Below are positions 44,268 through 57,504 of a stretch of 64,000 nt of DNA, one piece after another. The position numbers were made by a program, and so were the translations under genes. This DNA comes from a virus, in the IMG/VR virus record IMGVR_UViG_3300033442_000004, positions 56,773-120,772 of that record; one strand, written 5' to 3'. The notes under the pieces were generated by a model. It had not been told where the DNA came from. It saw only the letters and a list, made by a program, of their open reading frames with translations, and searched no databases. The stretch's first letter is position 1, and each line of letters opens with the position of its first letter.

Positions 44268-46256
44268 ATGGCACCGCCGCAAACGCCATCCGCTGAACGC
44301 GCCCGCAGGAAACAGGTCATCGAAGACCTCCTGAGACAGGGGTATCACCCTCAGGGATCGCGCGGCGGGATCGCATCCGCGACGAAGACGGCCGAGCGCC
44401 AAGAGAACATCAACTATCCGAACTGGGTTCGCGCCGAAGAGGCGCTGAAGCGCAAGCGCAAAGAGAACTATGCGATCGACTGGTCGCTCTACGTTCCGCC
44501 TGCACCCAAGGCTACCGTCACCTCAGGTGGCGAAGAACTGTCCGCCGAAGAAGTCGACCCGTTGATCCGGGCGAAGACGCTCTCGGCCGAGGTTACACAA
44601 CTCATCACCCAATCGAAATACCCGGTCATCAACCCGGAAGCCGTCATCGTCGACACGCCGATGCTGCGGAGCTGGTCCGCCAAGCACCGTCGCTACGTCG
44701 AGAAGGAAGGCAAGCCCCGGACATGGATGGTCGAGACCCTGCGCGTCGCGCCGTACCGCGATCCCCGCGGCAAGAACTTCATCTTCACGGGCGCGCAGAA
44801 CGATGCGCTCCTGCACGAGGAGTTCTGGGTCAACCTGAAGGCCTACGCCGCCTACATCGACGCTGAGATCATCGTCGGTCCCTGGACCTACGAGACCCAG
44901 TGGTGGGCGGAGAACGACCCGCAGGCGCGCGAGTACGCGCCCGAGCTGGCTGAGCACCTGTGCTTCGGCCAGATGAAGATCGGCGACAACTTTGTGTTCT
45001 GCGGCGAGATGAACACGCTGCCGACCGCATCGCAGCCGATCTCCGATCTGGTCACGTACAGCCGGGGCCGCTGGGCTGTGTTCCCGCACGCCAAGCGCCA
45101 GCTGAAGAGCGTTCCGTCCAACGACCCCAACGTCCAGGCCCACCAGGTCATGACGTCGGGCGCCTGCACGCGGCCAAAGATCATCCCGCGCAAGGCGGGC
45201 GTGAAGTCGCTGTTCCACCAGGTGGTCGGCGCCACCGTGGTGCAGTTCGATGAGGACGGCGACGTCTTCTGCCGGCAGATCACGGCGGACGACCATACCG
45301 GGGCGTTCTACGACCTCGACGCCTACGTGGCGAACGCGGAAGTGACCACGGGCCACCGGGCTCGTGCGATCACCATGCCGGACCTCCACGTCCGCAAGAT
45401 GGACCAGGCCAACTGCATGGCCATCTTCGGGTGGGACATGCGTGGTGGCCGAGCGCAGTACCGCGAGAGCATGGTCGACGTCCTCGATCCGGAGAATGTC
45501 ATCGGTCACGACATCTTCGACAACGAGGCGCGGAACCACCACCACGTCCACGACAACGCCTACAGCTACGAGATGGCCTTCCGGGGCCGCGACAGCGTGG
45601 AGGAAGAAGTCGAGCAGTGCGGTCAGTTCCTGCTGACGGCGATCGGCATGGGCGCGCTGCCGATGGTCACGGTCGGCGACCGGACCTTCATCGTTGCAGA
45701 AGGCAACCACGACATCGCGCTGGAGAAGTACGCCCGAGAAGGCCGGTACCGGAACGACGGCCGGAACGTCCGCTTCGGCTTGCAGCTCGAAGACGCATAC
45801 CTGGACTACGTCGAACGGCGCTCGATCGCCATCGACAACAACCAGCCTGTGCCGCGCTTCTCGCTGCTCGAACACGCCATCCGGATGAAGTATCCGCAGC
45901 TCGGTGACAAGGTGGTCTGGTGCCATGACGGCTACAGCCACCTGATCGACGGCATCGAGGTCGGCAACCACGGCTTCCGCGGAGCGAACGGCGCCAAGGG
46001 CACCGTGGCCGGCTTCGCGCGGGCAGGGCGCAAGATGTCGATCGGCGACAAGCACAGCCCCGAGATCATGGAGGGCGTGTACGTGGCCGGCGTCATCAAC
46101 CTGCGTCACGGCTACAACAAGGGCCTGTCGGGGTGGGCGGTCACCGTGATCATCCAGTATCCGGACGGGAAGCGCTCGCTGCTGACCCTGCAGAAGGGCA
46201 AATGGCGGCCAGGGAAGCGCGTCGTGCGCGTGCCGGCGCCGTCTTTCGCTGCCTGA
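44268..46256 (+). CDS. Metallophosphoesterase, T5 A1-like
   Basis: FIFTGAQN, MNTLPTA, PDLH, GHD, EGNHD, NHG and GDKHSP motifs. Confidence 0.7.
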   Translation: MAPPQTPSAERARRKQVIEDLLRQGYHPQGSRGGIASATKTAERQENINYPNWVRAEEALKRKRKENYAIDWSLYVPPAPKATVTSGGEELSAEEVDPLIRAKTLSAEVTQLITQSKYPVINPEAVIVDTPMLRSWSAKHRRYVEKEGKPRTWMVETLRVAPYRDPRGKNFIFTGAQNDALLHEEFWVNLKAYAAYIDAEIIVGPWTYETQWWAENDPQAREYAPELAEHLCFGQMKIGDNFVFCGEMNTLPTASQPISDLVTYSRGRWAVFPHAKRQLKSVPSNDPNVQAHQVMTSGACTRPKIIPRKAGVKSLFHQVVGATVVQFDEDGDVFCRQITADDHTGAFYDLDAYVANAEVTTGHRARAITMPDLHVRKMDQANCMAIFGWDMRGGRAQYRESMVDVLDPENVIGHDIFDNEARNHHHVHDNAYSYEMAFRGRDSVEEEVEQCGQFLLTAIGMGALPMVTVGDRTFIVAEGNHDIALEKYAREGRYRNDGRNVRFGLQLEDAYLDYVERRSIAIDNNQPVPRFSLLEHAIRMKYPQLGDKVVWCHDGYSHLIDGIEVGNHGFRGANGAKGTVAGFARAGRKMSIGDKHSPEIMEGVYVAGVINLRHGYNKGLSGWAVTVIIQYPDGKRSLLTLQKGKWRPGKRVVRVPAPSFAA

Positions 46257-46285
46257 TCGTTTGCATGAATGCAAAAGGAGGAACG

Positions 46286-46753
46286 ATGAAGCCGCTCGTC
46301 TATCTGGCGGGCCCGATCTCCGGGTTCAATTTCGACGGCGCCACCAGCTGGCGCGACAGCGTGAAGGAAGTGCTCGGCGAGTGGGGGATCAAAGCCCTCT
46401 CGCCGCTGCGCGAGCAGGATCACCTGAAGCAGGTCGGCATCTTCACGAACGCCGCGGAAGAGGCTGCTCGGCTCGAGTCGCCGATGTCGATGCCCAAGGG
46501 TCTGACCATCCGCGACCGCTGGGACGCGATGCGTTGCGACGTCCTGCTGGTGAACTTGCTCGGCGCGACGACCGTGTCGATCGGCACCGTGATGGAGATC
46601 GCCTGGGCCGACTCCAAGGGCATCCCGATCGTCGCGGCGGTCGAGGAGAAATTCAATCCGCACGAGCACGCGATGCTCATGCACTGCATCGGCTATCGCC
46701 TCACCAGCCTGTGGGACGCCTGCGATGTGACCCGGCAGCTGCTTGCCTGCTGA
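46286..46753 (+). CDS. Nucleoside 2-deoxyribosyltransferase-like / NMP N-glycosidase
   Basis: VYLAGPI, RD...CD, SIGTVMEIAWA. Confidence 0.85.
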   Translation: MKPLVYLAGPISGFNFDGATSWRDSVKEVLGEWGIKALSPLREQDHLKQVGIFTNAAEEAARLESPMSMPKGLTIRDRWDAMRCDVLLVNLLGATTVSIGTVMEIAWADSKGIPIVAAVEEKFNPHEHAMLMHCIGYRLTSLWDACDVTRQLLAC

Positions 46754-46787
46754 TTTGCTTGAATTGTAACGAGGAGAGAGAAGACAA

Positions 46788-47474
46788 ATGACGGTAGTTG
46801 GACTCGCGGGATTCGCTCAGTCGGGCAAGACGACGGCGGCGCTGTACCTGGAGAAGAAGTACGGCATCCGCCGTAAGCACATCGCCGAGCCGCTGCGGGC
46901 GATGCTCGCCGTGCTGCTGCAGGCGAACGGCATGTCGTCGGCCGAGATCACCGAGTACCTGGAAGGCTCCAAGAAGGAGCAGGTCATCCCGTGCCTGGGC
47001 GTCACCTCGCGCTACGCGCAGATCACGATCGGCACCGAGTGGGGTCGCGAGCTGATCAGCCAGGATCTGTGGGCCACCACCTGGGCACGCGGCATCGCTG
47101 ACGGCGAGTCCGTGATGAACGACTCCGTGCGCTTCCCGAACGAGGCTGCGGCGATCCGCAGGCTCGGCGGCGTGGTCATCATGATCAAGCGCCCGGGAAC
47201 GAAGCCGGCGAAGTTCAAGTGGGGCAAGCTCGGCGAGTTCCTGTACGACCGGTTCGGCCTGATGTGGGGCGTCCACGACAGCGAGCGCATCGATCGCATC
47301 AAGCCGGACTTCATCATCCACAACGATGCCTCGGTCGAGCAGCTGCAGGTCGACCTCGACAGCGCGCTGGTGAAGCACAACCAGATGGTCAAGCAGACCA
47401 GCTTCGCCCACTCCAAGCGGAGCGCCGCGGCGAGCGCCGGCCTGGCCCTCGCAGCCGCCGCCACGGTGCGCTGA
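46788..47474 (+). CDS. Deoxynucleoside monophosphate kinase
   Basis: GFAQSGKTT, R..QI.IGTEWGR, SVRFPNE. Confidence 0.85.
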   Translation: MTVVGLAGFAQSGKTTAALYLEKKYGIRRKHIAEPLRAMLAVLLQANGMSSAEITEYLEGSKKEQVIPCLGVTSRYAQITIGTEWGRELISQDLWATTWARGIADGESVMNDSVRFPNEAAAIRRLGGVVIMIKRPGTKPAKFKWGKLGEFLYDRFGLMWGVHDSERIDRIKPDFIIHNDASVEQLQVDLDSALVKHNQMVKQTSFAHSKRSAAASAGLALAAAATVR

Positions 47475-47770
47475 TGCCGATGGTGCGTTGGAAAACAGAC
47501 AGCAGGCCGCAGCGTCATGGATGGGCTCCAGGTGAGTACATCCATGCCCGTTGCGTCGGTCAGCTGTGCCAGAAGCTGGATGATTCCAGCTTCATCGGCG
47601 CCAAGCGGGCGATCATGTGCGCCGACTGCGCATATGCGCTGCCGGAGCAGGTCGACAAGCCGGCACCGAAACTCACCCAGGAGAAGCTGATCGAGATGAT
47701 CAAGGACATGTTCCGACAAGTCCGGCAGATCGAACTCGCCCTGGAGGAGTTCGAGGCTCGCAAGGGATGA
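47474..47770 (+). CDS. Hypothetical zinc-binding protein
   Basis: GWAPGEY, FIGAKRA..CADCA. Confidence 0.65.
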   Translation: MPMVRWKTDSRPQRHGWAPGEYIHARCVGQLCQKLDDSSFIGAKRAIMCADCAYALPEQVDKPAPKLTQEKLIEMIKDMFRQVRQIELALEEFEARKG

Positions 47771-47946
47771 GGCTGATCAACATGAAATTGACCCGGGGTG
47801 ACGCTGAGGTGATCACCCCGGAGCAGGTATGGACGGAGATCGGGAAGATCTTCGTGCAGCGGGCTTTCGGCATGAAGCCCACGGGGCCAGCCAAGAGCGG
47901 AAGACCCCAGGTCAACGTGCGAGAGCTGCTGGCGAGGGAGGAGTGA
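47767..47946 (+). CDS. Small hypothetical protein
   Basis: Coupled ORF. Confidence 0.45.
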   Translation: MRLINMKLTRGDAEVITPEQVWTEIGKIFVQRAFGMKPTGPAKSGRPQVNVRELLAREE

Positions 47947-48314
47947 CCGGCCGCTCTATTCCTCGGCATCGCGCTGTTCGGCGCGTTGGTGTCGGTCGTA
48001 GCCTTCTGTGACAAGGACAGGAGGCTATTGACCAAGGGCGTACTCACGTTCGTCGTGGCAGGGGTTCTGGCGCTGTCCGCGTGGTGACCTCAGCCTCATC
48101 ACGTGGTTGCCGGGAAGTGACCACGTGGAAAAAAGGTGATGAGCGCTGCGGATGTTTCTACATGGGGCCTCGCGCCACCTTGCGTACCCCCCCTCCCAAG
48201 GTTTACCGCACATTTTACCCCTTGCATTCAACCGGGAATCGCAAATTCGAGAATCTCGTCGTATAAGTGGTTGCGGGGAGCGCTGCGCGGTGCGGTGCAA
48301 TAAGAGGGGGCGAT

Positions 48315-49331
48315 ATGGAAGTCCAGCTGATTGCCGTTGACCGAATCCTCTTGGATCAACGCAACCCGCGCATTGCGCACGCGACAGAGCCTTTGGCAGG
48401 CACCGTTAGCCAGGAGTGGATCACTCTCGCGCTTGGTTATTCGGCTCCAGATGATGAGGAGCGGGGGGCATCGACCAGCTATTCCAGCCTTAAAGCCTCT
48501 ATTCGGGCCAACAAGGGGATCATAAATCCCATCATCGTGACAAAAGCCTATGATGGCCGGTATGTGGTCATCGAGGGCAATACGCGCGTGGCGATTTACC
48601 GCGAGTTGGCCGAAGAAGGAGCGCCGGGTAACTGGGCCGCGATTAACGCGATAGTCCGGGAGGAAGCCGAGGAGAAAGGAGAGCATGCGATCCGCCTCCA
48701 GTCTCATTTGGTTGGTCCCAGACCATGGCGGCCATACGCGAAGGCCAAATACCTGCACGACTTGTACATTAACCAAAAGCTCTCCATTTCGGAAATTCTC
48801 GACTTTTGCGGTGGAGGGGGAAGAAGGGCGGAGATTGAGCAGTACATCGATGCGTTTAGGGATATGCATGATACGTACATTCCGCTCGCAACCGCGTCGG
48901 GCAGTCCTCCAGATTTCTCGCTCTTCAGTTCGTTCGCAGAACTACAAAGCATAAAGCCTGCTCTCGCTCGAGCCGGTTACACCCTGCACGATTTTGCCAA
49001 ATGGGTTCACGAATCCAAATTGAGCCCGCAGAACACAGTTCGGCAACTTCCTCGCATTCTCGCCAACCCGGAAGCAAAAAAGCAATTTCTCACGCACAAC
49101 GCGCGCGAGGCGTTGAAGATTCTCGATCAACCGAGCACTAGCGCCGTCATCTCAAATGCCTCCCTTGAGCAACTCGCTACCGCGCTCAGTGTAAAACTGA
49201 GGCAACTGAACTGGCCAGAGATACAGGCTATGAAGGAGGCTAAGGACGGATCCGCGAGGCTGGCCCTGCTCACCTGCTTCGATGAATTGAAGGATTTTAC
49301 GAATTTCTTAGGCGCACAGGTTGATGCCTGA
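48315..49331 (+). CDS. ParB/Srx N-terminal domain protein
   Basis: LDQRNPR, SI....GIINPIIV, VIEGNTR; GAGGGGG RBS. Confidence 0.8.
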   Translation: MEVQLIAVDRILLDQRNPRIAHATEPLAGTVSQEWITLALGYSAPDDEERGASTSYSSLKASIRANKGIINPIIVTKAYDGRYVVIEGNTRVAIYRELAEEGAPGNWAAINAIVREEAEEKGEHAIRLQSHLVGPRPWRPYAKAKYLHDLYINQKLSISEILDFCGGGGRRAEIEQYIDAFRDMHDTYIPLATASGSPPDFSLFSSFAELQSIKPALARAGYTLHDFAKWVHESKLSPQNTVRQLPRILANPEAKKQFLTHNAREALKILDQPSTSAVISNASLEQLATALSVKLRQLNWPEIQAMKEAKDGSARLALLTCFDELKDFTNFLGAQVDA

Positions 49332-49764
49332 ATCCAAGCTTCATCGGGAACTTGTGAATCGTCTAGTGACTGCGGTTCGCCCTCGACGTTCGGGGTCTTG
49401 GTTCTTGTTTGTAGATTCGAATGATGGGAGCGTCTCGGAGGGATGTCCGCCGATTTTGCGATCGGTTTGCCCCGACCTTTATGCGAGAGAGAACGTTGGA
49501 AGCCATGTGGTGATCGGCGAGGCCAAGACATCCCGCGACCTGGATAACGTTCACACTGAGAAACAATTGTACGAGTACTTTCTCCACCTGTCTAACGAGC
49601 TGTCAGGCGAACTTCTAATTGCAGTTCCTATAATGTCGGCCGGAGCGGCCCATAGGCTGTGCCGGGCAGCTAGGGCGCGGGTGGGATGTGGTGGCGTGCC
49701 ATTTGAAGTGATGGGATGGCTGTTCGGGCCTAACAAGGCGACGTGCGAGACTTGGCGTGGGTAG
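49324..49764 (+). CDS. Small PD-(D/E)xK-like protein
   Basis: PDLYA...IGEAKT. Confidence 0.55.
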   Translation: MPESKLHRELVNRLVTAVRPRRSGSWFLFVDSNDGSVSEGCPPILRSVCPDLYARENVGSHVVIGEAKTSRDLDNVHTEKQLYEYFLHLSNELSGELLIAVPIMSAGAAHRLCRAARARVGCGGVPFEVMGWLFGPNKATCETWRG

Positions 49765-51232
49765 CTATTCCTTCAAAATGGCTCATGAGCCAGAGCTAAC
49801 GGCCAAGCACGCGGCTTTTCCATATCAAGAGGAAGCTGTGGAATTCGTGTGCGGCCGGGATTTTGCCGCCATTTTCCATGAGCAAGGTCTTGGGAAGACG
49901 AAGATCGCATTCGACTGCGCCCTCAAGTGGCTGTCGACGCAGGAAGTCGATGTCGTCTTGATCGTCGCCAAGAAAGGACTCGTTGGTAACTGGCAGCGGG
50001 AATTTGAGACGCATACGCGCATTCGTCCGTTCGTGCTTAGCGAAAAGTCTGCGCAGAACTACTATGTGTTCACCACGCCGTGTCGCGTTGTGCTTGCTCA
50101 CTACGAAGCGATCAAGAAGGAAGAAAAGCGCGTACGCGCTTGGTTGAAGACAAGGAGAGTGGCCGTCTTTTTGGACGAAGCGGTGAAGATAAAGACACCA
50201 AGCGCGGATCTCGCGCAGTGCTTTTTTCGGCTGGGACCTTTGTTCGCCAAGCGCGTGATTATGACGGGAACGCCAGCGGCGAACAGGCCATACGATGTAT
50301 GGGCGCCGATTTTCTTTCTCGATCAGGGCGCGACGCTCGGAACCGACTATGATCAATTCAAGCGCAAAACCGACTTGTCGAAGGAATTCCATGGCAACGA
50401 CGTCTTGCTCGCCAACTATGGAAAGATCTTGGCCGAAGTCCAAAATAAGATTTCGGCCATTTCTGTTCGCGAGACGAAGGCGGGTGGAAGGATAACGCTG
50501 CCTTCCAAGGAGTTCGTTCGAATCGATTGCGATTGGGAGTCGAGCCAACTCGAACTCTATCGGCAAGTCAGAGAAGAACTGCGTGCTATCGTGTTTCGCG
50601 ACGGCAGGCTCATTCAGGATGATCAAGACTCGATACTAAAGCGCCTCCTGCGACTCATTCAGGTAGCATCGAATCCAAAGCTCGTTGACGAAGCATATAA
50701 CGCAGAGCCTGGCAAATTTCCTCAGCTATATGATCTACTGACGGACATCACACGCCGTGAAGAGAAGGCGATCGTCTTCACGGTGTTCAACGAAAATTCG
50801 ACCTGGCTCACCAAGAGGCTCGCTCCTTTCGGCGCTCTGTGCCTCAATGGATCGATGCCGATCGACCGGCGCAACGATACGGTGAAATGGTTTCTTCAAA
50901 ACGAGAGCGATCGCGTTCTGGTCGCGACCACCGGAGCTGCCAAGGAAGGCTTGACGCTAACAGTCGCCAATCATGTCATATTCTATGATCGTACATACAG
51001 CCTCGATGACTACTTGCAGGCGCAGGATCGGATTCACCGAGTATCACAGAAGCGGGATTGCTTCGTCTACACCATGATCATGCGGAATTCGGTAGATGAA
51101 TGGATCGATGCCCTGCTTGCTCAAAAACACCTGGCCGCGCAACTGACGCAGGGTGACATCGATAGGGAAATATATGGCGAACAGGCCGATTTCTCGTTCG
51201 TGGACATCTTGCATTCGATCTTGAGTTCTTGA
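49757..51232 (+). CDS. SNF2-family helicase
   Basis: EQGLGKT, DEAV, MTGTP, EGLTL, QAQDRIHR. Confidence 0.9.
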   Translation: MGSYSFKMAHEPELTAKHAAFPYQEEAVEFVCGRDFAAIFHEQGLGKTKIAFDCALKWLSTQEVDVVLIVAKKGLVGNWQREFETHTRIRPFVLSEKSAQNYYVFTTPCRVVLAHYEAIKKEEKRVRAWLKTRRVAVFLDEAVKIKTPSADLAQCFFRLGPLFAKRVIMTGTPAANRPYDVWAPIFFLDQGATLGTDYDQFKRKTDLSKEFHGNDVLLANYGKILAEVQNKISAISVRETKAGGRITLPSKEFVRIDCDWESSQLELYRQVREELRAIVFRDGRLIQDDQDSILKRLLRLIQVASNPKLVDEAYNAEPGKFPQLYDLLTDITRREEKAIVFTVFNENSTWLTKRLAPFGALCLNGSMPIDRRNDTVKWFLQNESDRVLVATTGAAKEGLTLTVANHVIFYDRTYSLDDYLQAQDRIHRVSQKRDCFVYTMIMRNSVDEWIDALLAQKHLAAQLTQGDIDREIYGEQADFSFVDILHSILSS

Positions 51233-51234
51233 CC

Positions 51235-52251
51235 ATGAGCCCGCACTCGGACGTAATCACGCTTAGACAAAAAGAGGTGCCTCTGGTCGTCGACAGCGTC
51301 GACAACCACAAGCTCCGATTTTACGCGGAGAATCCGCGTATCTACTCGCACATCTGGAGCGAAGGCCGCGAACCAACTCAGCAAGAGATTTTCGATGTCC
51401 TAGCCAAAACGGAGCATGTGCGAGAGGTCTTGATGCCGTCCATCAAGACAAATGGCGGATTAATCGAGCCGCTCTTGGTAAAGGGAAACGTCGTTCTTGA
51501 GGGGAACAGCCGGCTCGCTGCATACAGGTTGCTTTCCGAGAATGATCAGGAGAAATGGCGCCTTGTCCGTGTGCGGCGCCTTCCTAGTGATATCTCTGAG
51601 GCGGATGTCTTCGCCTTGCTCGGCGAATACCATATCGTTGGTAAGAAGGACTGGGCGCCCTTTGAGCAGGCTGGCTACCTATACAGACGGCACAAGACCC
51701 ATGGCATCAATGAAGCCGATCTTGAAAAGGAGATCGGACTTGGTGCGCATAAGATCAGGCACCTGATCCGCGTGTACCAATTCATGCGAGACCACAACGA
51801 TCAAAACCCGAGTCGCTGGAGCTACTACGATGAGTTGCTCAAGGGTCGGAAATTTGCGGACGCGGTCGCAAAATATCCCGACTTCAACGAGATCATCGTA
51901 GAGAAAATCAATTCAGGAGAGATTGAGCGTGCAGTGGATTTGCGCGACCGGCTGCCACTCATAACGAAAGCAGGCGGCAATACGCTGAAGAAATTCATTG
52001 CTGGCACATACTCGTTCGAAGATGCCGTGGCGGATGCACGGTTAAGAGGTGCCGGTAATTACAACGTCAAAAAGCTTCATGAATTTCGACAATGGTTAGC
52101 CGAGGCGCAGCTCGATGACGAGTTTCGATCGAGCAAAGACAAGCAGATGCTCAAGTTTGAATTGGACAAGATCAATCGCAGGGTCCGAGGACTACTGCAG
52201 GTAGTGGATGGCTCCCCGCCGCAGAAGAAGAGCGCTGCAGCGAAGAAGTAA
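51235..52251 (+). CDS. Second ParB/Srx N-terminal domain protein
   Basis: ENPRI, SI..NGGLIEPL, VLEGNSR, KDW.PFEQA. Confidence 0.8.
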   Translation: MSPHSDVITLRQKEVPLVVDSVDNHKLRFYAENPRIYSHIWSEGREPTQQEIFDVLAKTEHVREVLMPSIKTNGGLIEPLLVKGNVVLEGNSRLAAYRLLSENDQEKWRLVRVRRLPSDISEADVFALLGEYHIVGKKDWAPFEQAGYLYRRHKTHGINEADLEKEIGLGAHKIRHLIRVYQFMRDHNDQNPSRWSYYDELLKGRKFADAVAKYPDFNEIIVEKINSGEIERAVDLRDRLPLITKAGGNTLKKFIAGTYSFEDAVADARLRGAGNYNVKKLHEFRQWLAEAQLDDEFRSSKDKQMLKFELDKINRRVRGLLQVVDGSPPQKKSAAAKK

Positions 52252-52256
52252 AAGGG

Positions 52257-53756
52257 CTATTGACAAAGTCGTTGCAGAGCGGTCAGCAGTTTCCTTGCCT
52301 GCTCGCGATTTGTGACGATCTTCGCAATGAGCGACGCCGCTTCGTCAAGCGCCACGGCGGATGCTCCACGCTTTGGTGTGAGGTCAGTAAGTCGGCGTTT
52401 CAGGCGGTCGATTTTCTTCAGGAGAGGCTTCGCCTGAGTTTCGTCCTCGAGCCTCTTAACGTGCGTCTCAGCACGCAAGAGCGTCGATTTCAATCGGGAC
52501 AACTCCGCTGGATCGAACCTCTGCCGCTGCTTTAAGCGATCCTCGATCGCCTGGATTGCTTTGTCAGCGCTCACACCGTTGTTCCGAGCGACGGAGGATG
52601 TACGGCACCGGTGCGCGATCTTCGCGGCCAGCGGCCCGAGTTGAACCAGCAGGTTGTAGTAGTGGTGATTGACCTCGAAATTGTCGCGACGCCCGTTCGG
52701 GACGATTCGTTGATCTAAAACGTGTATCTCGCCTATGCTCCAGCCATTGAAGCGACGTTCTTTGAAAACGTCCTCGAACAAGTTATTCTCACCAACCTGG
52801 AGATCCCCACTTCGTGCTCTAATCCCGCTGACACCCAAGCTAGGCGGAATGCTCCTGATGTACTCGTGATCAGCGATCCAAGCGACCGCTCCCGCTCTTC
52901 CATCCACATCCGGAAATTCGACAAACTCGATGCCTTTGACGTGCAGCGCTTGCGAGGTGCTAGGAAAAACAATCTCGTCGCGGTACGGTCTAACGATCAC
53001 CTCATTGGCCACAGTCAGGTTCAGGGGAATGCTCGTCCGATGGAGCGAGAGTGTCTTGTCTATCTCGGGGCCGAAGGAAAAATCTGGAGAGAATGGAAGG
53101 GGCGCCACCTCTGACAGGTAATTTCCGATTAGTTGCTCGTTCAGCAAAACATCGTTGCGTAAACGAGAGATGTCATTTAGCCGGACTTCGAAGAAGTGCT
53201 CCGACGTTTTCGGAGCTTTCTCATGCCTGACCGTCACCGCCTGGGCGAGGACTTGTTCTAGGTTGCCGTGAAACGCCGCATCGCGCAGACATTCCCGCAT
53301 CGCCCGACTGCTCCATCTCACGATAGAGACGTCATCTTCGCCGGCTGCTTTTGTCCTGAATTCGAGTTCTTTGCAATAAGCGAGACCTGAGAGGCGGCCT
53401 ACGCCACGGAACCCGCGAGCCCCTGTGCCGCGTTTTGACGAAGCGCCAATTGCGAGGAGCGTTGAAATGACGTTTCGCTTCTTGAGGCCAGCACCATTGT
53501 CGCGAATGGTGACCGATCGAGCAGCGTGATCAAACGAAATCGATACCTCGCCGCGAGATCGGGGGCCGATCAAAGCTTGTTCACGAGCCGCATCGATGGC
53601 GTCGGCAGCATTCTGAACGTACTCCCGGTAGATGGTTACAGGAGAAACGTACATACCGCTGGAAAGGAGTTCGATGATGTCCTTTCCAACCTTGATGTCT
53701 TGGGTCGCTATGCGGCTCCAGTCATCTGCCTCTCTGCGGGGGAGAACCGACGTCAT
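52257..53756 (-). CDS. GHKL (Hsp90/MORC-like) ATPase
   Basis: REYVQNAADA, IRDNGAG, GFRGVGRL. Confidence 0.88.
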   Translation of the reverse strand: MTSVLPRREADDWSRIATQDIKVGKDIIELLSSGMYVSPVTIYREYVQNAADAIDAAREQALIGPRSRGEVSISFDHAARSVTIRDNGAGLKKRNVISTLLAIGASSKRGTGARGFRGVGRLSGLAYCKELEFRTKAAGEDDVSIVRWSSRAMRECLRDAAFHGNLEQVLAQAVTVRHEKAPKTSEHFFEVRLNDISRLRNDVLLNEQLIGNYLSEVAPLPFSPDFSFGPEIDKTLSLHRTSIPLNLTVANEVIVRPYRDEIVFPSTSQALHVKGIEFVEFPDVDGRAGAVAWIADHEYIRSIPPSLGVSGIRARSGDLQVGENNLFEDVFKERRFNGWSIGEIHVLDQRIVPNGRRDNFEVNHHYYNLLVQLGPLAAKIAHRCRTSSVARNNGVSADKAIQAIEDRLKQRQRFDPAELSRLKSTLLRAETHVKRLEDETQAKPLLKKIDRLKRRLTDLTPKRGASAVALDEAASLIAKIVTNREQARKLLTALQRLCQ

Positions 53757-55384
53757 TATGCTGCCTCCTGCCTACGACGCTTGCGTTTCAGAGTGACCGG
53801 CTCGTAGCTCTCTTCCTCTTCGAGGCCGGCGTCTTCGACGATTTCCTCAGGAGACAATCCGATCTTCGTCTGTTTCTCCGCTAGGAGACGCTTTTGTTGC
53901 ACTCGCCGAATTTCCAACTCCTCCTCTCTCGCGATAGGGATGTAAAACTCAGCTACGCCACGCACATTTGCGGGCAGGTCGCCAATCGAATTGCGATACA
54001 AAGAGGGATTGTGGCGGGACAGGAACCCGATCAGCTCCGCTCGTTCGCTCGGCGAGAGGCGGGTCAAGGAAGCACGCCACTGGTCAAGTGCGCCTCGCCC
54101 CTCGTAGCGTTCGTACCATTGTCTATTGAAGATCATGTGGTGCGGGCGCGAGAGAATGTCCTCAAATTCCTGATGGCTTCCGCCAAAGGCCGCTTTGTAA
54201 AAATCGGGTTCACCAGAGACGACGCCGCGCGTCGCCTGCAATACAAGTTGCACGGAGCGCAGGTAGTACCGATTCCACTTGTCGCCGACGTGAGAGCGAT
54301 CAGGTAAATCGGTGGGCTGGTAGCGCATAGGGAATGAATAGATGCGGATAGAAAGTTCCTCATTGAGTTTCACGTTCAGGTACATCCGCTCAAAAAGGTC
54401 CGCGGGAGAATCATGGAAGTTGTACAGCATGTAGTTCGACAGATCGTTCATGCCGAACTCGTGCGCGTAGCGGATTGCCGTTTCGTAAGGTGCTTTCAAA
54501 CCTAGATGGTCGAAGGCGATCCTCAGCGGGCTGATGCAGATCGAGGAAAGCTCGCGAAGGTACATCTTGTCCTTGCAGAGAATTCGTGCGTCTACACCTT
54601 GATTGAAGTCAACACGTCGCTGAGAGGCAACTCGCTCGTTGGAGCGTCTCAGCTTCGCGCCGCGCTCGAAACCTAGGTCTCGTATCTCTGCAATGATTTC
54701 TTTGAACCGAGATGAAGCGACAACGTTGTTGTCCATCAGTAACAGGTCGCGCCGAGGACCGTACAGTTTATCAACGGATTCCACCAATTGGGTAAGCGGC
54801 GTCGCATCGCGCTGAGCGCCCTCAAGCTTAGGCACTCCGCAAAAATGACACTTGCGAATGCATCCGCGTGAGGCGTAGGCGAAGTAGGCGTCCCGGACCG
54901 GATACTTGTACTCTATGTGCTCTAGGATGCTGTAGTCGGGGGTAAGGTCCTCAATTGGGGTGCTAGACCGGTCGTCAGCATAAAAGTCTCCGTCTTCTTC
55001 GTTCAGCTGCAGCGCGCCAGCGGGCGCCTGATCCAGTAAGCCGCGGATGAAGCGAATACCACGCCAACGGGTCTCGGTCAGAAAGCGCGAATGCATTAGG
55101 GAGGCTGCAATTCCACCAACGAATACCCGCTGGGATTGTCCTTGCACGAGGTCGAGCGCGAATTCGATTGTCTCTGCAATCTTGGGATATTCGAACGAAA
55201 AGAGGGTGGTGATGTAGATCCGGTCCCAAGATTGGAGCCGAAGGCTTTGATCAATACCCTTGGCGAATTTTACCTGATCCTTCTTGCCGTTGGGCCCGTG
55301 ATACTGGGCAATTTTCATTAGGCCGAGTGGGGGGTATTTGTTTTTGTACCCCGGCTCCAACAGCAAAATTTTCTTCCCTGGCAT
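53756..55384 (-). CDS. Radical SAM protein with cobalamin-binding-like N-terminus
   Basis: YPPLGLMKI, VGGIAASL, SRGCIRKCHFC (CxxxCxxC), DNN, DFNQGVD. Confidence 0.88.
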   Translation of the reverse strand: MPGKKILLLEPGYKNKYPPLGLMKIAQYHGPNGKKDQVKFAKGIDQSLRLQSWDRIYITTLFSFEYPKIAETIEFALDLVQGQSQRVFVGGIAASLMHSRFLTETRWRGIRFIRGLLDQAPAGALQLNEEDGDFYADDRSSTPIEDLTPDYSILEHIEYKYPVRDAYFAYASRGCIRKCHFCGVPKLEGAQRDATPLTQLVESVDKLYGPRRDLLLMDNNVVASSRFKEIIAEIRDLGFERGAKLRRSNERVASQRRVDFNQGVDARILCKDKMYLRELSSICISPLRIAFDHLGLKAPYETAIRYAHEFGMNDLSNYMLYNFHDSPADLFERMYLNVKLNEELSIRIYSFPMRYQPTDLPDRSHVGDKWNRYYLRSVQLVLQATRGVVSGEPDFYKAAFGGSHQEFEDILSRPHHMIFNRQWYERYEGRGALDQWRASLTRLSPSERAELIGFLSRHNPSLYRNSIGDLPANVRGVAEFYIPIAREEELEIRRVQQKRLLAEKQTKIGLSPEEIVEDAGLEEEESYEPVTLKRKRRRQEAA

Positions 55385-55619
55385 ACTCGGCCCCCTATTT
55401 GGGGGCCGAGCATACACCACGGAATCTGAGAATGCGATCGCAAAGTTGTGTACGCGCCGGATGCCTTGTCCAAAGTCCCAGAAGGCTGTTGAAAAGTCTG
55501 TCTGACCCAGTAGAACGCGGGTATTGCTCTTTGCATTGAAGCAAACGTCAGGGGCACATGATCCAGTCCGACCTGTGAGATGACGACCTGGGTCTCGTGC
55601 CTCGCAATCTGATGGTGCG

Positions 55620-55796
55620 TCAGGCTTTCTGGTTTCGGACGAGGCTGGCTTTCCAGCCTTTGGATTTGATGTATGCCCGCGCCTGATCGTCGGTCTTTCC
55701 GACAAGATACTTCAGGATTGGGGCCGCGCGCCGCACCACGCCATCAGTCTCGAAACCGGCCACGAAATGCGGCGCCACCACCCGGATCAAACGCAT
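55620..55796 (-). CDS. Small hypothetical phage protein
   Basis: MRLIRVVAPHFVAG...AAPILKY. Confidence 0.55.
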   Translation of the reverse strand: MRLIRVVAPHFVAGFETDGVVRRAAPILKYLVGKTDDQARAYIKSKGWKASLVRNQKA

Positions 55797-55800
55797 GGTT

Positions 55801-56325
55801 TCAGGTCGGCGAGACCCAGGCTCGGATGCGGTTGCGCGGGTAGACAGCCTCTCGAACGCGGCCGCGCGAGTTGCCGCTGATGACGATTGGATCGCCATTG
55901 GCCTTGAAGCCTGAAACTACGCCGACATGGCCGCCGCCACGGCGACCCATCGTCACGACGGCGCCCACCTGCGGGGTGATGTGTTGCTTGCGCTCCCAAG
56001 AGAGGGCGCGGTCATCGACACCAGAGGCGCCAGTGATCTTGCGGATGAATGCCGAGCACCACAGGGTGGAGCGGACGCCAACCTGGTGTGCCGTAGCACC
56101 GATGAACTGGCGGGCGCGATCTACGACGCCGCTACCGGCCTCGAAACCGCTATGGATACCCGAGCTGAAGTGATCGAAGAACGACGGTTCCTGGGCCTGC
56201 ACCACGACGCGCTGAGCGTGGTGGTGGCCGTGATGACGATGATGGTGCCTCGGGCGGGCCTCAGCGGCCGAAAAAGACGCAGCGAGGATTGCGGCGCAAA
56301 GCAGCGCCGTTGTTGACTTTCTCAA
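55801..56325 (-). CDS. Secreted CHAP/NlpC-P60-like peptidoglycan hydrolase
   Basis: Signal peptide, LWCSAF, GGHVG.V, ISGN; TTG start with AGGAG RBS. Confidence 0.75.
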   Translation of the reverse strand: MRKSTTALLCAAILAASFSAAEARPRHHHRHHGHHHAQRVVVQAQEPSFFDHFSSGIHSGFEAGSGVVDRARQFIGATAHQVGVRSTLWCSAFIRKITGASGVDDRALSWERKQHITPQVGAVVTMGRRGGGHVGVVSGFKANGDPIVISGNSRGRVREAVYPRNRIRAWVSPT

Positions 56326-56351
56326 GATTTGGACTCCTATGGGGGGCGGGA

Positions 56352-56633
56352 TCAGGCCGTTGTGCGTGCTGCGACCCGTTGGCGGTCTGCTTCGACCGCG
56401 AGGTAGGTTGGATGCTTGGTCCATTCGTCGGCGTTCTGGAGCGCGAACGCCTGCTGCACCTGCATGATGAAGAGGCGCGCGGCCTCTTCGCTCATGTCAG
56501 CGAGCACCTGCTCGCCAGAGGTCATGCGGAAGGACATCTTCGGCTCCTCACCTGTGTCGGTGTCGACGTTCTTCGCTGCGACGAACTCGATCGGCCCTGC
56601 TTTCAGTCGGGCTACTTGGACTGCTTGGATCAT
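56352..56633 (-). CDS. Hypothetical protein
   Basis: Coupled ORF. Confidence 0.6.
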   Translation of the reverse strand: MIQAVQVARLKAGPIEFVAAKNVDTDTGEEPKMSFRMTSGEQVLADMSEEAARLFIMQVQQAFALQNADEWTKHPTYLAVEADRQRVAARTTA

Positions 56634-57259
56634 GCTGCTGCCTCCACGATGGCTGGTTGGTTGTCGTTAAACTTCGAGGTCTCGTTGCCCCATGAGTCCC
56701 AGCCGGGACGCTGCTCTCGGCTGAAGATGTCGGCCTTCGGATACGGGCCAGCCATCTTCTCGGCCTCGACGTAGCCCTCGTCGGGCTTGCGCGAGTGCTC
56801 GCGGCGCGGGGAAAGGATTGCAGAGCGGATGTCGCGTGCGTGTATCTTCGGCTTGCCGACCTTTCCGATCAGGAAGGGCTCGTGGCAGTTGCGCAGCGCG
56901 TAGCCTGTGCCGAAGGTCGGCTTGCTGCCGTCCTTGACCATCTTCACCCAGACGCCCTGGGTGACGTAGGTGACGCTCCAGCGTCTGAAGCACTCGCGCG
57001 CCTGGTCGTACATCGGCGCGGTGGCGTAGAGCCAAACCCACATGCCATCGCGATGCGCGAGGCGCTCGACGTCCAGCTCGAAGATCTCTTCGAGCGTCAT
57101 CGTGTCGTAGTGCTGCTCGGCGGACTTGCTTTTGCCCTTGGCCGAATAGGTCTTGAAGGCCCACGGCGGATCGATCTTCGCGAGCCCGTAGTTGTGCTCC
57201 TTCAACGGCGCGAGGTTGAACGTCGGCGGCGGCAGGATGGGGAAGGGTTTGATCTGCAT
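56630..57259 (-). CDS. MT-A70-family adenine methyltransferase
   Basis: DPPW, HYDTM, GTGY..R...E, HSRKP, FSRE.RPGWDSWGNE. Confidence 0.9.
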   Translation of the reverse strand: MQIKPFPILPPPTFNLAPLKEHNYGLAKIDPPWAFKTYSAKGKSKSAEQHYDTMTLEEIFELDVERLAHRDGMWVWLYATAPMYDQARECFRRWSVTYVTQGVWVKMVKDGSKPTFGTGYALRNCHEPFLIGKVGKPKIHARDIRSAILSPRREHSRKPDEGYVEAEKMAGPYPKADIFSREQRPGWDSWGNETSKFNDNQPAIVEAAA

Positions 57260-57321
57260 TTTGCTCTGTTTGCATTCAAGCAAACGACAGGGCGCACGTA
57301 TCCCGTCGATGCTGATGGCGG

Positions 57322-57504
57322 TTACTTCATCAGGTCGGCGAAGGTCTTGTTGATGCGCTCGATGCGTTCGACGTTGCAGCCGTAGCACCAGGCGCCCCAG
57401 TGGGTTTTGTGGCAGGAGTTGCCGCAGCCCAGGCAGCTCGTGAGCTTGCCGGTCTTGTAGCGCTCCGGGTCACGCCACGGCTGGGGCTCGGGCGTGGACA
57501 TCAC
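57322..57504 (-). CDS. Small Cys-rich protein
   Basis: CxxC...CxxC. Confidence 0.55.
   Translation of the reverse strand: MMSTPEPQPWRDPERYKTGKLTSCLGCGNSCHKTHWGAWCYGCNVERIERINKTFADLMK

What the first reader, a model, noticed from the sequence alone, without database searches (positions are those of the whole stretch)
48315..55384. Candidate novel defence or DNA-modification system: 2x ParB-like, PD-(D/E)xK, SNF2, GHKL ATPase and radical SAM
Seen: a 7-kb block with visibly lower GC and weaker GC3 bias than the phage, inserted where the rightward and leftward phage arms converge. It has two internally overlapping operons facing each other with stops 5 bp apart: ParB-like, small PD-ExK, SNF2 and ParB-like; then radical SAM (CxxxCxxC, cobalamin-binding-like N-terminus) and GHKL ATPase (TAATG coupled). 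Knowledge: MORC/GHKL ATPases, SNF2 helicases, ParB-like NTPase/nuclease domains and PD-(D/E)xK nucleases recur in RM-associated and anti-phage systems, prophages carry such cassettes at hotspots, and radical SAM enzymes can modify nucleotides. Inference: a six-gene system in which the radical SAM marks DNA or makes a nucleotide product while the other operon restricts or senses. I know no named system with this composition.
Basis: partly seen in the sequence, partly recalled or inferred. Interest (0 to 1): 0.88.

Follow-up and report, generated by a model that had tools for sequence, protein, structure and literature searches.

The report
Prophage-borne radical-SAM/Hsp90-like defence-type cassette
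A prophage carries a foreign-looking six-gene block, a radical-SAM enzyme with its own Hsp90-like ATPase plus a helicase, a small nuclease and two ParB-like proteins, that recurs as a unit in very different bacteria, has no name, and probably protects the cell against other invading DNA by unknown chemistry.

Summary
Window 48315-55384 is a low-GC island (GC 0.52-0.56 against about 0.62; GC3 0.58-0.64 against mostly 0.72-0.93). It sits in a prophage between the rightward late genes and the leftward integrase arm. Two convergent operons end 5 bp apart: ParB-like / PD-(D/E)xK / SNF2 / ParB-like, and radical SAM / GHKL ATPase joined by TAATG.

The six genes belong together. In 80 loci found with the radical SAM, the ATPase is adjacent in 79 and the four-gene module lies within 10 kb in 36. 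In 80 loci found with ParB2, 54 show the radical SAM and/or its ATPase within 4 kb. Only one locus with more than 7 kb on both sides lacks them, and its ParB1 is truncated. So the radical SAM/ATPase pair is the core and the four-gene module depends on it.

The ATPase is Hsp90-like by fold, not MORC-like. Relatives often add a DndB/DpdB-like gene, absent here, or a PIN + second-ATPase pair.

PADLOC, NCBIfam and six literature searches gave no named system. One 2026 preprint mentions an HSP90 + radical SAM neighbourhood in one line. This scan has flagged the same cassette on other DNA at least 18 times. The chemistry and the defence phenotype remain untested.

The parts
48315..49331 (+). ParB1: ParB/Srx-fold protein (338 aa from the ATG at 48315) with an EGNTR motif; paralogue of ParB2
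   Evidence: Pfam ParB_N scores 23 bits, below the cut-off of 26.3. A profile of 17 homologues hits Noc (7ng0) at E 0.004 and SbnI. hhalign against the ParB2 profile gives probability 99.5%, E 8e-23, over 235 columns. E87 is conserved at 90% or more, and G88, N89, T90 and R91 are invariant.
49321..49764 (+). Small PD-(D/E)xK-type nuclease (147 aa)
   Evidence: No Pfam, PADLOC or NCBIfam hit. 'PD' and '(I/V)GEAKT' are conserved at 90% or more in 25 aligned sequences. The nearest named ESM Atlas clusters are all PD-(D/E)XK families, but they score 0.87-0.88, which makes them leads only.
49757..51232 (+). SNF2-family translocase/helicase (491 aa), with no fused nuclease
   Evidence: Pfam SNF2-rel_dom 2.1e-22 and Helicase_C 8.8e-18, both above their cut-offs. 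PADLOC matches cover only the helicase part of ZorD (1.1e-44) and DpdE (3.3e-29). GLGKT and DEAV motifs are visible in the translation.
51229..52251 (+). ParB2: second ParB/Srx-fold protein (340 aa) with an EGNSRLAA motif
   Evidence: No Pfam hit. PADLOC PDC-M38A gives a partial match at 2.3e-11. E91 G92 N93 S94 R95 L96 A97 A98 are invariant in 23 sequences. It is a paralogue of ParB1.
52257..53756 (-). Hsp90-like GHKL ATPase (499 aa), the dedicated partner of the radical SAM
   Evidence: HATPase_c_3 scores 40.2 bits against a cut-off of 25. E45, N49, D86, G88 and the RGFRGxGRL lid are invariant in 23 sequences. The AF2 model has pLDDT 84.6. The best Foldseek matches are Hsp90/TRAP1/GRP94/HtpG, E about 1e-13, TMq 0.43-0.48. 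It is adjacent to the radical SAM in 79 of 80 loci.
53756..55384 (-). Radical SAM enzyme (542 aa) with an N-terminal Rossmann-like domain and a helical C-terminal domain; the most conserved gene of the cassette
   Evidence: C175/C179/C182 are invariant and no other Cys is invariant. The AF2 model has pLDDT 87.1. Foldseek matches are MtaB/MiaB, MgmA (9ccb), TsrM, AprD4, OxsB, CysS and TokK, with TMq 0.38-0.45. Identity to homologues in other phyla is 61-79%.
52249..52259 (.). Convergent junction: ParB2 stop and GHKL stop 5 bp apart, with no room for terminators
   Evidence: Read directly. The same convergent layout occurs in the closest relatives L004, L006 and L082.
55388..55408 (-). 8-bp GC-rich hairpin (CGGCCCCC-AAATA-GGGGGCCG) ending 3 nt before the radical SAM ATG and containing the G-run that could serve as its ribosome-binding site
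   Evidence: Read directly. Not tested further.

Best explanation
The block is a prophage-borne copy of a widespread, mobile, unnamed gene system.

Core: an obligate, translationally coupled pair. One member is a strongly conserved radical SAM enzyme that resembles class B enzymes in fold. The other is its own lineage of Hsp90-like GHKL ATPase.

Accessory arm in this copy: a DNA-directed module of two paralogous ParB/Srx-fold NTP-binding proteins, a small PD-(D/E)xK nuclease and an SNF2 translocase. This module is almost never found without the core, whereas the core is often found without it.

Most likely mechanism (inferred, not shown): the ATPase gates or delivers the radical SAM enzyme, which makes a covalent change on DNA. 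The ParB-like pair then loads on DNA and, with the SNF2 motor and the nuclease, destroys DNA in the 'wrong' marking state. The lysogen is thereby protected from other phages or plasmids. The evidence does not decide whether the mark is put on the cell's own DNA (restriction-modification logic) or on the invader (mark and destroy).

Shown: the gene set, the linkage, the asymmetric dependence, intact catalytic motifs, the folds and the mobility.
Inferred: defence, DNA as the substrate, and the division of labour.
For: (1) Linkage from the radical SAM side.
- The genome-contig scan gave 260 confirmed relatives, of which the best 80 were kept.
- The GHKL gene lies next to the radical SAM in 79 of 80 loci; the exception, L008, ends at the radical SAM.
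- The four-gene module lies within 10 kb in 36 of 80 loci.

(2) Linkage from the ParB2 side.
- The metagenome scan gave 574 relatives, of which the best 80 were kept.
- 50 of 80 loci have the radical SAM 29-3,770 bp from the module, and 4 more have the ATPase at a contig end.
- Of the 26 loci with neither, 25 have one flank shorter than 2.2 kb.
- Only L158 has more than 7 kb on both sides and lacks both. Its ParB1 match starts at query residue 90.

(3) Whole genomes.
- ParB2 was found in 3 of 401 genomes sampled from one class.
- The radical SAM was found in 3 of 401 genomes sampled from one order. The centre genome is counted in both.
- In G185, G231 and G509 the two genes lie 29, 31 and 159 bp apart. 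G504 has the radical SAM without ParB2.

(4) The linkage is not one frozen block.
- The module sits upstream on the same strand in 23 loci, upstream opposite in 5, downstream same in 4 and downstream opposite in 3.
- Arrangement needs at least 8 changes on the radical SAM tree.
- Presence or absence of the module needs 16 changes in 64 loci, against a shuffled mean of 21.5.

(5) Each ATPase lineage has its own partner.
- On a tree of 113 ATPases, the labels 'follows radical SAM / PIN / HerA' need 2 changes on 106 rows. The minimum over 200 shuffles is 26.
- The 33 PIN partners form one side of a branch with support 97.

(6) Catalytic motifs are intact in all six proteins.

(7) The order of conservation fits an enzyme with a fixed substrate plus faster-evolving DNA-handling parts. 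Identity to homologues is 61-79% for the radical SAM, 41-62% for GHKL, 34-52% for SNF2, 26-49% for the ParB proteins and 26-37% for the nuclease.

(8) Partner genes in relatives are nucleic-acid directed: DndB/DpdB-like (Pfam DndB 6.8e-10; PADLOC DpdB 1.8e-18), PIN_8 (4.1e-22) and a HerA/DndH-like ATPase (2.8e-40).

(9) Mobility.
- The island is low in GC and sits inside a prophage.
- Relatives lie on plasmids (L026, L029), in several phyla, and in 3 close viral contigs that each also carry the ATPase and ParB/SNF2 genes (only the first 24 of those 80 viral loci were examined).

(10) Complex prediction, radical SAM 1-503 with GHKL 1-497: weak support only.
- The median score is 0.33 (runs 0.50, 0.00, 0.33) and the best of 3 controls is 0.00.
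- The mark was reached by 58 of 80 solved complexes and 2 of 110 mismatched pairs. At 0.60 or under it was reached by only 7 of those 80 solved complexes and by both mismatches that passed.
- The runs agree in at least 0% of their contacts, and the partner's pLDDT is at least 75.
Against: - No phenotype, no chemistry and no expression data exist for this copy.
- No defence library recognises the radical SAM, the ATPase or the small protein.
- The radical SAM's best structural matches act on tRNA, proteins or small molecules, not on DNA, and TM-scores are only 0.38-0.45.
- Hsp90-type ATPases are protein chaperones, so the pair could be an enzyme plus its maturase or gate, with no DNA contact.
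- 12 of 80 loci show the core without the four-gene, PIN, DndB-fusion or HerA modules within 10 kb. The core may therefore act alone.
- Earlier notes of this scan (e1-2377112 and e1-901465; not re-tested here) report two results against simple restriction-modification logic. A later check priced the 'self-mark that shields from the neighbouring cutters' reading at 12 in 100. The radical SAM gene was the broken one in 4 of 8 damaged rows, 3 of them beside whole cutter genes.
- In my own 184 examined loci I saw no clearly broken radical SAM. I saw two frameshifted or truncated SNF2 genes and one frameshifted ATPase, all in long-read MAGs where errors are likely. My data cannot settle this point.
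- Related sequences share ancestry, so the tree-shuffle counts overstate independence.
Confidence: 0.45

Rival explanations
1. Nucleotide-product model. The radical SAM enzyme, gated by the Hsp90-like ATPase, converts a free nucleotide into either a chain-terminating analogue or a signal. The ParB/Srx-fold proteins, whose fold binds NTPs, act as receptors that switch on the SNF2 motor and the nuclease.
For: - OxsB is among the structural matches. From memory, it is a cobalamin-dependent radical SAM that acts on deoxyadenosine phosphates to make an antiviral nucleoside.
- The known radical SAM defence enzymes, the prokaryotic viperins, make nucleotide analogues (recalled). Ophion's radical SAM works with a PRTase and a PHP domain (passages read).
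- Three kinds of ParB-superfamily partner recur beside the core: ParB1/2, DndB-like, and a 789-aa DndB fusion. This fits a shared ligand.
- The model explains why the four-gene module needs the core.
- The very high conservation of the enzyme fits a universal small substrate.
Against: - Many loci pair the core only with PIN + ATPase and have no ParB-fold protein.
- No nucleotide kinase, phosphatase or transferase recurs in the 80 loci.
- No receptor domain of a known signalling defence system was matched.
Confidence: 0.17
2. Enzyme-plus-chaperone effector model. The Hsp90-like ATPase is a sensor or gate, and the radical SAM, like the PIN and HerA partners of its paralogues, is itself the toxic effector. 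It would damage DNA, RNA or a protein on infection (abortive infection). The four-gene module would be an add-on that clears the damaged nucleic acid.
For: - Paralogous ATPase lineages each follow one enzyme (radical SAM, PIN_8 nuclease or HerA-type translocase) in partner-specific clades.
- The core occurs without other modules in 12 of 80 loci.
- A 2026 preprint reads its three-gene PAACC + HSP90 + radical SAM neighbourhood as effector systems held in check until infection (section 32 read).
Against: - The radical SAM is far more conserved than effectors in arms races usually are.
- Complex prediction gave weak support only.
- No toxicity data exist.
Confidence: 0.15
3. Phage self-protection. 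The prophage uses the radical SAM pair to hypermodify its own DNA so that it escapes host restriction. The block is then counter-defence rather than defence.
For: - The island lies in a prophage next to a phage DNA methyltransferase.
- It is kept at the same place, about 91% identical, in a related prophage of a cultured isolate.
Against: - Close orthologues are overwhelmingly chromosomal or plasmid-borne. Only 3 of the 80 best viral hits are close (62-64% identity).
- The tightly linked nuclease and SNF2 module has no role in self-modification.
- The composition of the island marks it as cargo, not a core phage function.
Confidence: 0.06
4. Two unrelated systems that merely sit side by side in a hotspot.
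For: They are two separate, convergent operons. The core occurs without the four-gene module in 44 of 80 loci.
Against: - 54 of the 55 informative ParB2-anchored loci hold the core within 4 kb.
- In 3 of 3 sampled whole genomes with ParB2 the genes are adjacent, although each gene occurs in under 1% of sampled genomes.
- The linkage persists through at least 8 changes of arrangement.
Confidence: 0.03

Closest known systems
Dpd system (DpdA/B/C 7-deazaguanine DNA modification with DpdD-K restriction)
   Same: - Both combine a ParB-fold protein beside a DNA-modifying activity with an SNF2-type helicase. PADLOC DpdE models match the SNF2 at up to 3.3e-29.
- The DndB-like gene of relatives matches PADLOC DpdB at 1.8e-18.
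- Both are mobile multi-gene islands.
   Different: - The provirus record has no TGT/DpdA family gene (0 matches, with controls positive in 14 of 14 genomes) and no DndB-family gene.
- The DpdE matches cover only the helicase part.
- Dpd, as I recall it, has no radical SAM or Hsp90-like ATPase within the system.
- The NCBIfam DpdE score is 28.3 against a cut-off of 500.
Dnd / Ssp phosphorothioate systems (DndABCDE with DndFGH)
   Same: - The logic is similar: an Fe-S enzyme, a DNA-handling ATPase and a ParB-superfamily protein (DndB), with optional, separable restriction modules.
- Modification modules are often found without restriction modules (passages of PMC10853773 read). This parallels the asymmetry I measured.
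- A HerA/DndH-like ATPase occurs in 4 of 80 related loci.
   Different: - None of the six proteins matches a DndA, C, D or E model in PADLOC.
- The Fe-S enzyme here is a true radical SAM with CxxxCxxC, not a PP-loop protein.
- The ATPase here is of GHKL type, not SMC/ABC type.
Class B (cobalamin-dependent) radical SAM enzymes (MgmA 9ccb, TsrM 6wte, OxsB 5ul2, CysS 9n1d, TokK 7kdx)
   Same: An N-terminal Rossmann-like domain followed by the radical SAM core. Foldseek E values are 8e-9 to 4e-5 and TMq is 0.36-0.44. NCBIfam gives weak hits to B12-binding radical SAM models around the cluster motif.
   Different: - No Pfam B12-binding hit.
- MiaB/MtaB and AprD4 match equally well.
- Sequence identity is 11-16%.
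- The helical C-terminal domain and the conserved VEDAGL tail have no counterpart that I tested.
- The substrate and cobalamin use are unknown.
Hsp90-like and MORC/paraMORC GHKL ATPases of conflict systems (Tiamat; Hsp90-like defence proteins)
   Same: A GHKL ATPase with intact motifs in a mobile, defence-like setting. The fold is closest to Hsp90. The Tiamat preprint (passages read) places 'putative antiphage Hsp90-like proteins' next to Hsp90.
   Different: - No fused nuclease, HD or phosphoesterase domain.
- PADLOC gives only marginal TmtA hits, E 0.005.
- Here the ATPase is a separate protein always encoded after an enzyme gene.
'PAACC + HSP90 + Radical SAM' three-gene neighbourhood (bioRxiv 10.64898/2026.10.19.760177, section 32)
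   Same: It is the only printed mention I found of an HSP90-type gene linked to a radical SAM gene in an immunity context.
   Different: - It is one sentence with no accession in the text I could read, and the supplements are closed. I cannot tell whether it is the same pair.
- No cyclase-like gene is present in this window, and no PAACC sequence was available to test.

Membership tests
Radical SAM superfamily | CxxxCxxC motif that binds the 4Fe-4S cluster | tested here: met
   C175, C179 and C182 are invariant in 21 of 21 sequences.
Radical SAM superfamily | Pfam PF04055 at or above its gathering score | tested here: not met
   16.8 bits against a cut-off of 29.5. The fold search nevertheless returns radical SAM enzymes at E down to 6e-9.
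Class B cobalamin-dependent radical SAM | N-terminal cobalamin-binding Rossmann domain | tested here: inconclusive
   A Rossmann-like N-domain is modelled and resembles MgmA, TsrM and OxsB. It resembles MiaB/MtaB and AprD4 equally. There is no Pfam B12-binding hit. Cobalamin binding cannot be tested here.
Methylthiotransferases (MiaB/RimO/MtaB) | Second, N-terminal three-cysteine auxiliary cluster | tested here: not met
   No invariant cysteine outside C175/C179/C182.
GHKL ATPase superfamily | Bergerat-fold motifs (N box E/N, G1 DxGxG, G2 lid) and a Pfam HATPase_c_3 hit | tested here: met
   E45, N49, D86, G88 and the lid glycines are invariant. HATPase_c_3 scores 40.2 bits against a cut-off of 25.
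Hsp90/HtpG family proper | Full-length match to the curated family model | tested here: not met
   NCBIfam PRK14083 scores 65.6 bits against a cut-off of 455, and HtpG scores 40.3 against 371. Only the fold is Hsp90-like.
MORC ATPases | GHKL plus S5-fold module closest to MORC/MutL | tested here: not met
   All rows printed in the Foldseek table (ranks 1-49, with gaps where further chains of listed entries are omitted) are Hsp90-family chains. No MORC or MutL chain is among them.
SNF2 family | SNF2-related N-lobe and Helicase_C above the Pfam cut-offs | tested here: met
   80 bits and 65 bits.
Zorya ZorD | Equivalog score and a fused Mrr-like nuclease | tested here: not met
   NCBIfam ZorD scores 66.9 bits against a cut-off of 1500. 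PADLOC matches cover only model positions 436-883 of 908. The protein has 491 aa and no extra domain.
Dpd system | DpdA (TGT-family transglycosylase) present | tested here: not met
   0 matches to PF01702 in the provirus record, with controls positive in 14 of 14 genomes. The host chromosome outside the record was not searched.
Dnd system | DndB-family gene, and DndA/C/D/E | tested here: not met
   PF14072 gives 0 matches in the record. None of the six proteins hits a DndA, C, D or E model in PADLOC. Other ORFs of the record were not scanned for DndA/C/D/E.
ParB/Srx superfamily | ParB N-domain with the arginine-bearing GxxR box | tested here: inconclusive
   ParB1 scores 23 bits against a cut-off of 26.3, and ParB2 has no Pfam hit. 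The ParB1 profile hits Noc at E 0.004. The EGN(T/S)R motif is E at 90% or more plus invariant GNTR in ParB1, and fully invariant in ParB2. The two are paralogues. No structure model was made.
PD-(D/E)xK nucleases | Catalytic D ... (D/E)xK motif in a restriction-endonuclease-like fold | tested here: inconclusive
   The motif PD ... GEAK is conserved at 90% or more in 25 sequences. The fold was not modelled. Atlas look-alikes are PD-(D/E)XK families, but only at 0.87-0.88.

The most novel reading that the evidence does not exclude
The radical SAM enzyme, working with its dedicated Hsp90-like ATPase, writes a chemically new covalent mark on DNA by radical chemistry. The ParB-like/nuclease/SNF2 module reads that mark. 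This would be the first immune system in which a radical SAM enzyme takes the place of the DNA methylase, possibly marking the invader rather than the self.
Probability: 0.25. Interest if true: 0.9.

Novelty: new variant of a known kind. Interest (0 to 1): 0.72.

Why it matters
If the cassette defends cells, it adds a widespread system to bacterial immunity. I found it in several phyla, on plasmids and in prophages. Its constant core, a radical SAM enzyme with its own Hsp90-like ATPase, has no characterised counterpart.

The enzyme is 61-79% identical between phyla, which points to a fixed and important substrate. Finding that substrate could reveal a new DNA or nucleotide modification.

The measured asymmetry gives a clear genetic prediction that can be tested: the nuclease/helicase arm needs the core, and the core does not need the arm.

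This copy is useful in practice. It is the minimal six-gene form without the DndB-like gene. It is carried by a prophage, and a cultured isolate holds a related prophage with the same island at the same place.

Tried and rejected
- Phage collection: megablast of the island found nothing.
- Named systems: PADLOC and NCBIfam gave none.
- Literature: six searches found no description of the gene set.
  - Ophion is a radical SAM defence system with PHP and PRTase partners, so a different composition (passages read).
  - PMC10853773 on Dnd, PMC3226654 and the Tiamat preprint were read as passages and do not describe it.
  - All other papers were seen only as search listings.
  - Supplements are closed. 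The supplementary data of the ParA preprint might identify its HSP90 + radical SAM neighbourhood.
- PDB profile searches: the radical SAM gave only marginal hits around the cluster motif (best E 0.012). ParB2 gave nothing meaningful.
- Genome sampling: the class-wide and order-wide samples gave too few positives (3 of 401 each) for a contingency table. I used them only as base rates.
- Island boundaries: no flanking direct or inverted repeats stand out.
- Promoters and terminators: promoter-like sites numbered 2, against 4.3 expected from shuffles. Terminator-like sites numbered 15, against 8.4 (sd 2.7) expected. I did not examine whether any of them lies at an operon end.
- Broken genes: the screen gave mostly natural stops at the ends of alignments. 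The three real breaks lie in long-read MAGs, and I draw nothing from them.
- Expression: no RNA holder was listed.
- Reads: all four runs laid are contigs, so nothing can be said about transcription.
- I considered and rejected chance adjacency, MORC identity and methylthiotransferase identity (see the membership table).

Full report
WHAT IS THERE

The window is the right-hand 64 kb of an IMG/VR provirus record of 120,772 bp. From 48 to 55 kb the GC content per kb falls to 0.523-0.562, against 0.59-0.68 in the rest of the window. The third-codon GC of the six genes is 0.58-0.64. Six of eight flanking phage ORFs have 0.72-0.93; two low ones, 0.45 and 0.59, may be wrongly called frames.

On the left, PHROGs names + strand late genes: an endolysin, a DNA transfer protein and a dNMP kinase. 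On the right it names - strand genes: a DNA methyltransferase at 56630-57388 and an integrase at 62708-64000.

The genes are as described:
- ParB1, 48315-49331 (+)
- a 147-aa protein, 49321-49764 (+)
- SNF2, 49757-51232 (+)
- ParB2, 51229-52251 (+)
- the radical SAM, 55384-53756 (-)
- the GHKL ATPase, 53756-52257 (-)

I read the junctions directly. The two operons stop 5 bp apart. The radical SAM stop overlaps the ATPase start as TAATG.

WHAT THE PROTEINS ARE

SNF2. Both lobes are above the Pfam cut-offs.

ATPase.
- It has HATPase_c_3 above its cut-off, and the Bergerat motifs are invariant in 23 homologues.
- Its AlphaFold model (pLDDT 84.6) is closest to Hsp90, TRAP1, GRP94 and HtpG, with E about 1e-13 and TMq 0.43-0.48. 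No MORC or MutL chain appears among the rows listed.
- It is Hsp90-like in fold but fails the curated Hsp90 models.

Radical SAM.
- It is weak in Pfam, at 16.8 bits against a cut-off of 29.5.
- C175/C179/C182 are invariant and no other cysteine is.
- Its model (pLDDT 87.1) matches enzymes that carry a Rossmann-like N-domain before the radical SAM core. These are MtaB/MiaB, MgmA, TsrM, AprD4, OxsB, CysS and TokK, at TMq 0.38-0.45.
- The lack of a second cysteine triad argues against a methylthiotransferase. Cobalamin use cannot be decided here.
- In the main clade, a conserved VEDAGL motif lies at the end of a stretch with no confident structure (pLDDT under 50 for residues 504-535).

ParB1 and ParB2.
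- They are paralogues (hhalign 99.5%, E 8e-23).
- They carry an EGN(T/S)R box: invariant in ParB2, and in ParB1 E at 90% or more with GNTR invariant.
- ParB1 has marginal similarity to Noc and SbnI.

Small protein. PD and GEAKT are conserved in 25 sequences, the signature of a PD-(D/E)xK nuclease. I did not model its fold.

DO THE SIX GENES BELONG TOGETHER?

Radical SAM family. It is large and strikingly conserved. 7,838 of 8,000 scored candidates matched, and the best 120 were 72-100% identical.

Loci anchored on the radical SAM. A scan of one genome per species gave 260 relatives, and I kept the best 80, which come from several phyla and two plasmids.
- The ATPase follows the radical SAM in 79 of 80 loci. 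The exception ends at the radical SAM.
- By clustering all ORFs of these loci, the following lie within 10 kb:
  - the four-gene module in 36 of 80;
  - a PIN_8 protein with a second, paralogous ATPase in 34 of 80 (both modules in 14);
  - a DndB/DpdB-like gene just upstream of the radical SAM in 35 of 80;
  - a 789-aa DndB fusion in 19 of 80;
  - a HerA/DndH-like ATPase with a third ATPase paralogue in 4 of 80 (family);
  - none of the four-gene, PIN, DndB-fusion or HerA modules in 12 of 80.

Loci anchored on ParB2. This is the reciprocal test, using a ParB2 alignment (574 relatives, best 80 kept).
- 50 loci hold the radical SAM 29-3,770 bp from the module.
- 4 more hold the ATPase at a contig edge.
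- 25 of the remaining 26 have a flank shorter than 2.2 kb.
- Only L158 has more than 7 kb on both sides without either gene. There the ParB1 match lacks the first 89 query residues.

Whole genomes.
- Each gene occurs in 3 of 401 sampled genomes.
- Where ParB2 occurs, the radical SAM lies 29-159 bp away (G185, G231, G509). One genome, G504, has the radical SAM without ParB2.

Conclusion. The pair is the core, and the four-gene module depends on it but not the reverse.

The linkage is not a single frozen block. Four arrangements occur (23, 5, 4 and 3 loci), with at least 8 switches on the radical SAM tree. Presence of the module needs 16 changes in 64 loci, against a shuffled mean of 21.5. These counts come from a FastTree tree of very similar sequences and from related loci, so they are indicative only.

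THE ATPASE LINEAGES

On a tree of 113 ATPases, those that follow a PIN gene form one side of a branch (33 rows, support 97). The labels radical SAM / PIN / HerA need only 2 changes on 106 rows, while 200 shuffles need at least 26. Each enzyme therefore has its own ATPase lineage, which argues for specific enzyme-ATPase partnerships. Shared ancestry inflates this contrast.

Complex prediction for the radical SAM (1-503) with the ATPase (1-497) gave weak support only.
- The median score is 0.33 and the best control is 0.00.
- The mark was reached by 58 of 80 solved complexes and 2 of 110 mismatched pairs. At 0.60 or under it was reached by only 7 of those 80 solved complexes and by both mismatches that passed.
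- The runs agree in at least 0% of contacts, and the partner's pLDDT is at least 75.

THIS COPY

It is the minimal form.
- The whole provirus record has no DndB-family gene and no TGT/DpdA gene.
- Its closest relatives, L004, L006 and L082, share the convergent layout and the short 499-500-aa ATPase.

Phage carriage of the main clade is rare. Only 3 of the 80 best viral hits are 62-64% identical. All three also carry the ATPase and ParB/SNF2 genes (I examined the first 24 of those 80 loci).

Laying public contigs on 44-60 kb showed that a coded run of a cultured isolate holds a related prophage.
- One contig of 68,666 letters follows the window from 44298 to 58576.
- It covers the whole island, 48227-55465, in a single piece with 623 other letters and 6 gaps, about 91% identity.
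- The neighbouring phage genes are about 86-88% identical.
- Window 47327-48226 is replaced there by 423 other letters.
- The island is therefore an established, well-kept part of this phage lineage.

HOW IT MOST LIKELY WORKS

What is shown:
- a mobile cassette;
- an obligate enzyme-ATPase pair;
- a DNA-directed nuclease/translocase arm that depends on the pair;
- intact catalytic motifs throughout.

What I infer, at about 0.45: the ATPase gates or delivers the radical SAM enzyme, which changes DNA covalently. The two ParB-like proteins load on DNA and, with SNF2 and the nuclease, destroy DNA in the wrong marking state.

The polarity of the mark is open. The rarity of orphan four-gene modules fits restriction-modification logic, but it equally fits an effector arm that is useless without the core's product.

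Earlier notes of this scan report evidence against a simple self-shield. The radical SAM gene was the broken one in 4 of 8 damaged rows, and a later check priced that reading at 12 in 100. I did not re-test this, and my own screen for broken genes was uninformative.

Rivals:
- a nucleotide product or signal read by the NTP-binding ParB folds (0.17);
- the radical SAM as a gated toxic effector, like the PIN and HerA partners of the paralogous ATPases (0.15);
- phage self-modification (0.06);
- chance adjacency (0.03).

COMPARISON WITH WHAT IS KNOWN

The nearest systems in logic are Dpd and Dnd: a ParB-fold protein, a modifying enzyme, an ATPase and separable restriction modules. Their defining genes are absent, and the matches to DpdE and ZorD cover only the shared helicase core.

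No paper among those searched describes the gene set. One sentence in a 2026 preprint lists a PAACC + HSP90 + radical SAM neighbourhood. I cannot tell whether it is the same pair, because the supplements are closed.

This scan found the same cassette before on other DNA: 18 findings in at least 14 genomes, with the same general reading. I file it as a new variant of the modification-linked, multi-gene defence kind. If the chemistry proves to be a radical-SAM-written DNA mark, it would be new in kind.

Noticed in passing
window 44298-58576 (island part 48227-55465): A coded public run of a cultured isolate (X3, 'organism A') has one 68,666-letter contig with a related prophage. It carries the same island at the same place. 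The island is about 91% identical (623 other letters, 6 gaps) and the flanking phage genes are about 86-88% identical. Window 47327-48226 is replaced there by 423 other letters.
   Followed up: partly
window 55388-55408 (- strand): A perfect 8-bp GC hairpin (loop AAATA) ends 3 nt before the radical SAM start codon and contains the G-run that could be its ribosome-binding site. It may control translation, or it may terminate the upstream gene.
   Followed up: no
L016:13237-16732 and 33 other related loci: A PIN_8-domain protein of about 620 aa is followed by a second, paralogous Hsp90-like ATPase in 34 of 80 radical SAM loci. These ATPases form their own clade. Whether this pair also occurs without the radical SAM pair was not tested.
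   Followed up: partly
L072:13171-17172, L078:4761-8631: A HerA/DndH-like ATPase, a third ATPase paralogue and an unassigned protein of about 290 aa sit next to the radical SAM pair in 4 of 80 loci. A DUF5131 gene (PADLOC PDC-M41B/M30B, E 1e-102) lies nearby in some of them.
   Followed up: no
window 53756-53850 (radical SAM C-terminus, residues about 504-542): In the main clade a conserved 'VEDAGL' motif followed by acidic residues lies at the end of a stretch with no confident structure (pLDDT under 50 for residues 504-535). The motif is absent from the divergent clade at 36-43% identity. It could be a docking motif.
   Followed up: no
L158:7245-10975: This is the only four-gene module with more than 7 kb on both sides and no radical SAM or ATPase nearby. 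Its ParB1 match lacks the first 89 query residues (ORF of 281 aa), so it may be a decaying orphan.
   Followed up: partly
L168, L171, L173-L175, L177 (viral contigs): Divergent radical SAM genes (31-43% identity) in viral contigs sit beside a related ATPase in the reverse order, ATPase first, and without the ParB/SNF2 module.
   Followed up: no
L143:4071-8118, L150, L152, L155, L141: In some metagenome loci the four-gene module is followed by a divergent, shorter radical SAM (37-43% identity, 396-477 aa) with no detectable ATPase hit. In L143 an 855-aa ORF follows instead.
   Followed up: no
window 56630-57388 (- strand): A phage DNA methyltransferase (PHROG 359, E 5e-66) lies about 1.2 kb from the island on the integrase-side arm.
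   Followed up: no
window 9876-9948 and 20636-20711: The prophage carries tRNA-Trp and tRNA-Asn genes.
   Followed up: no
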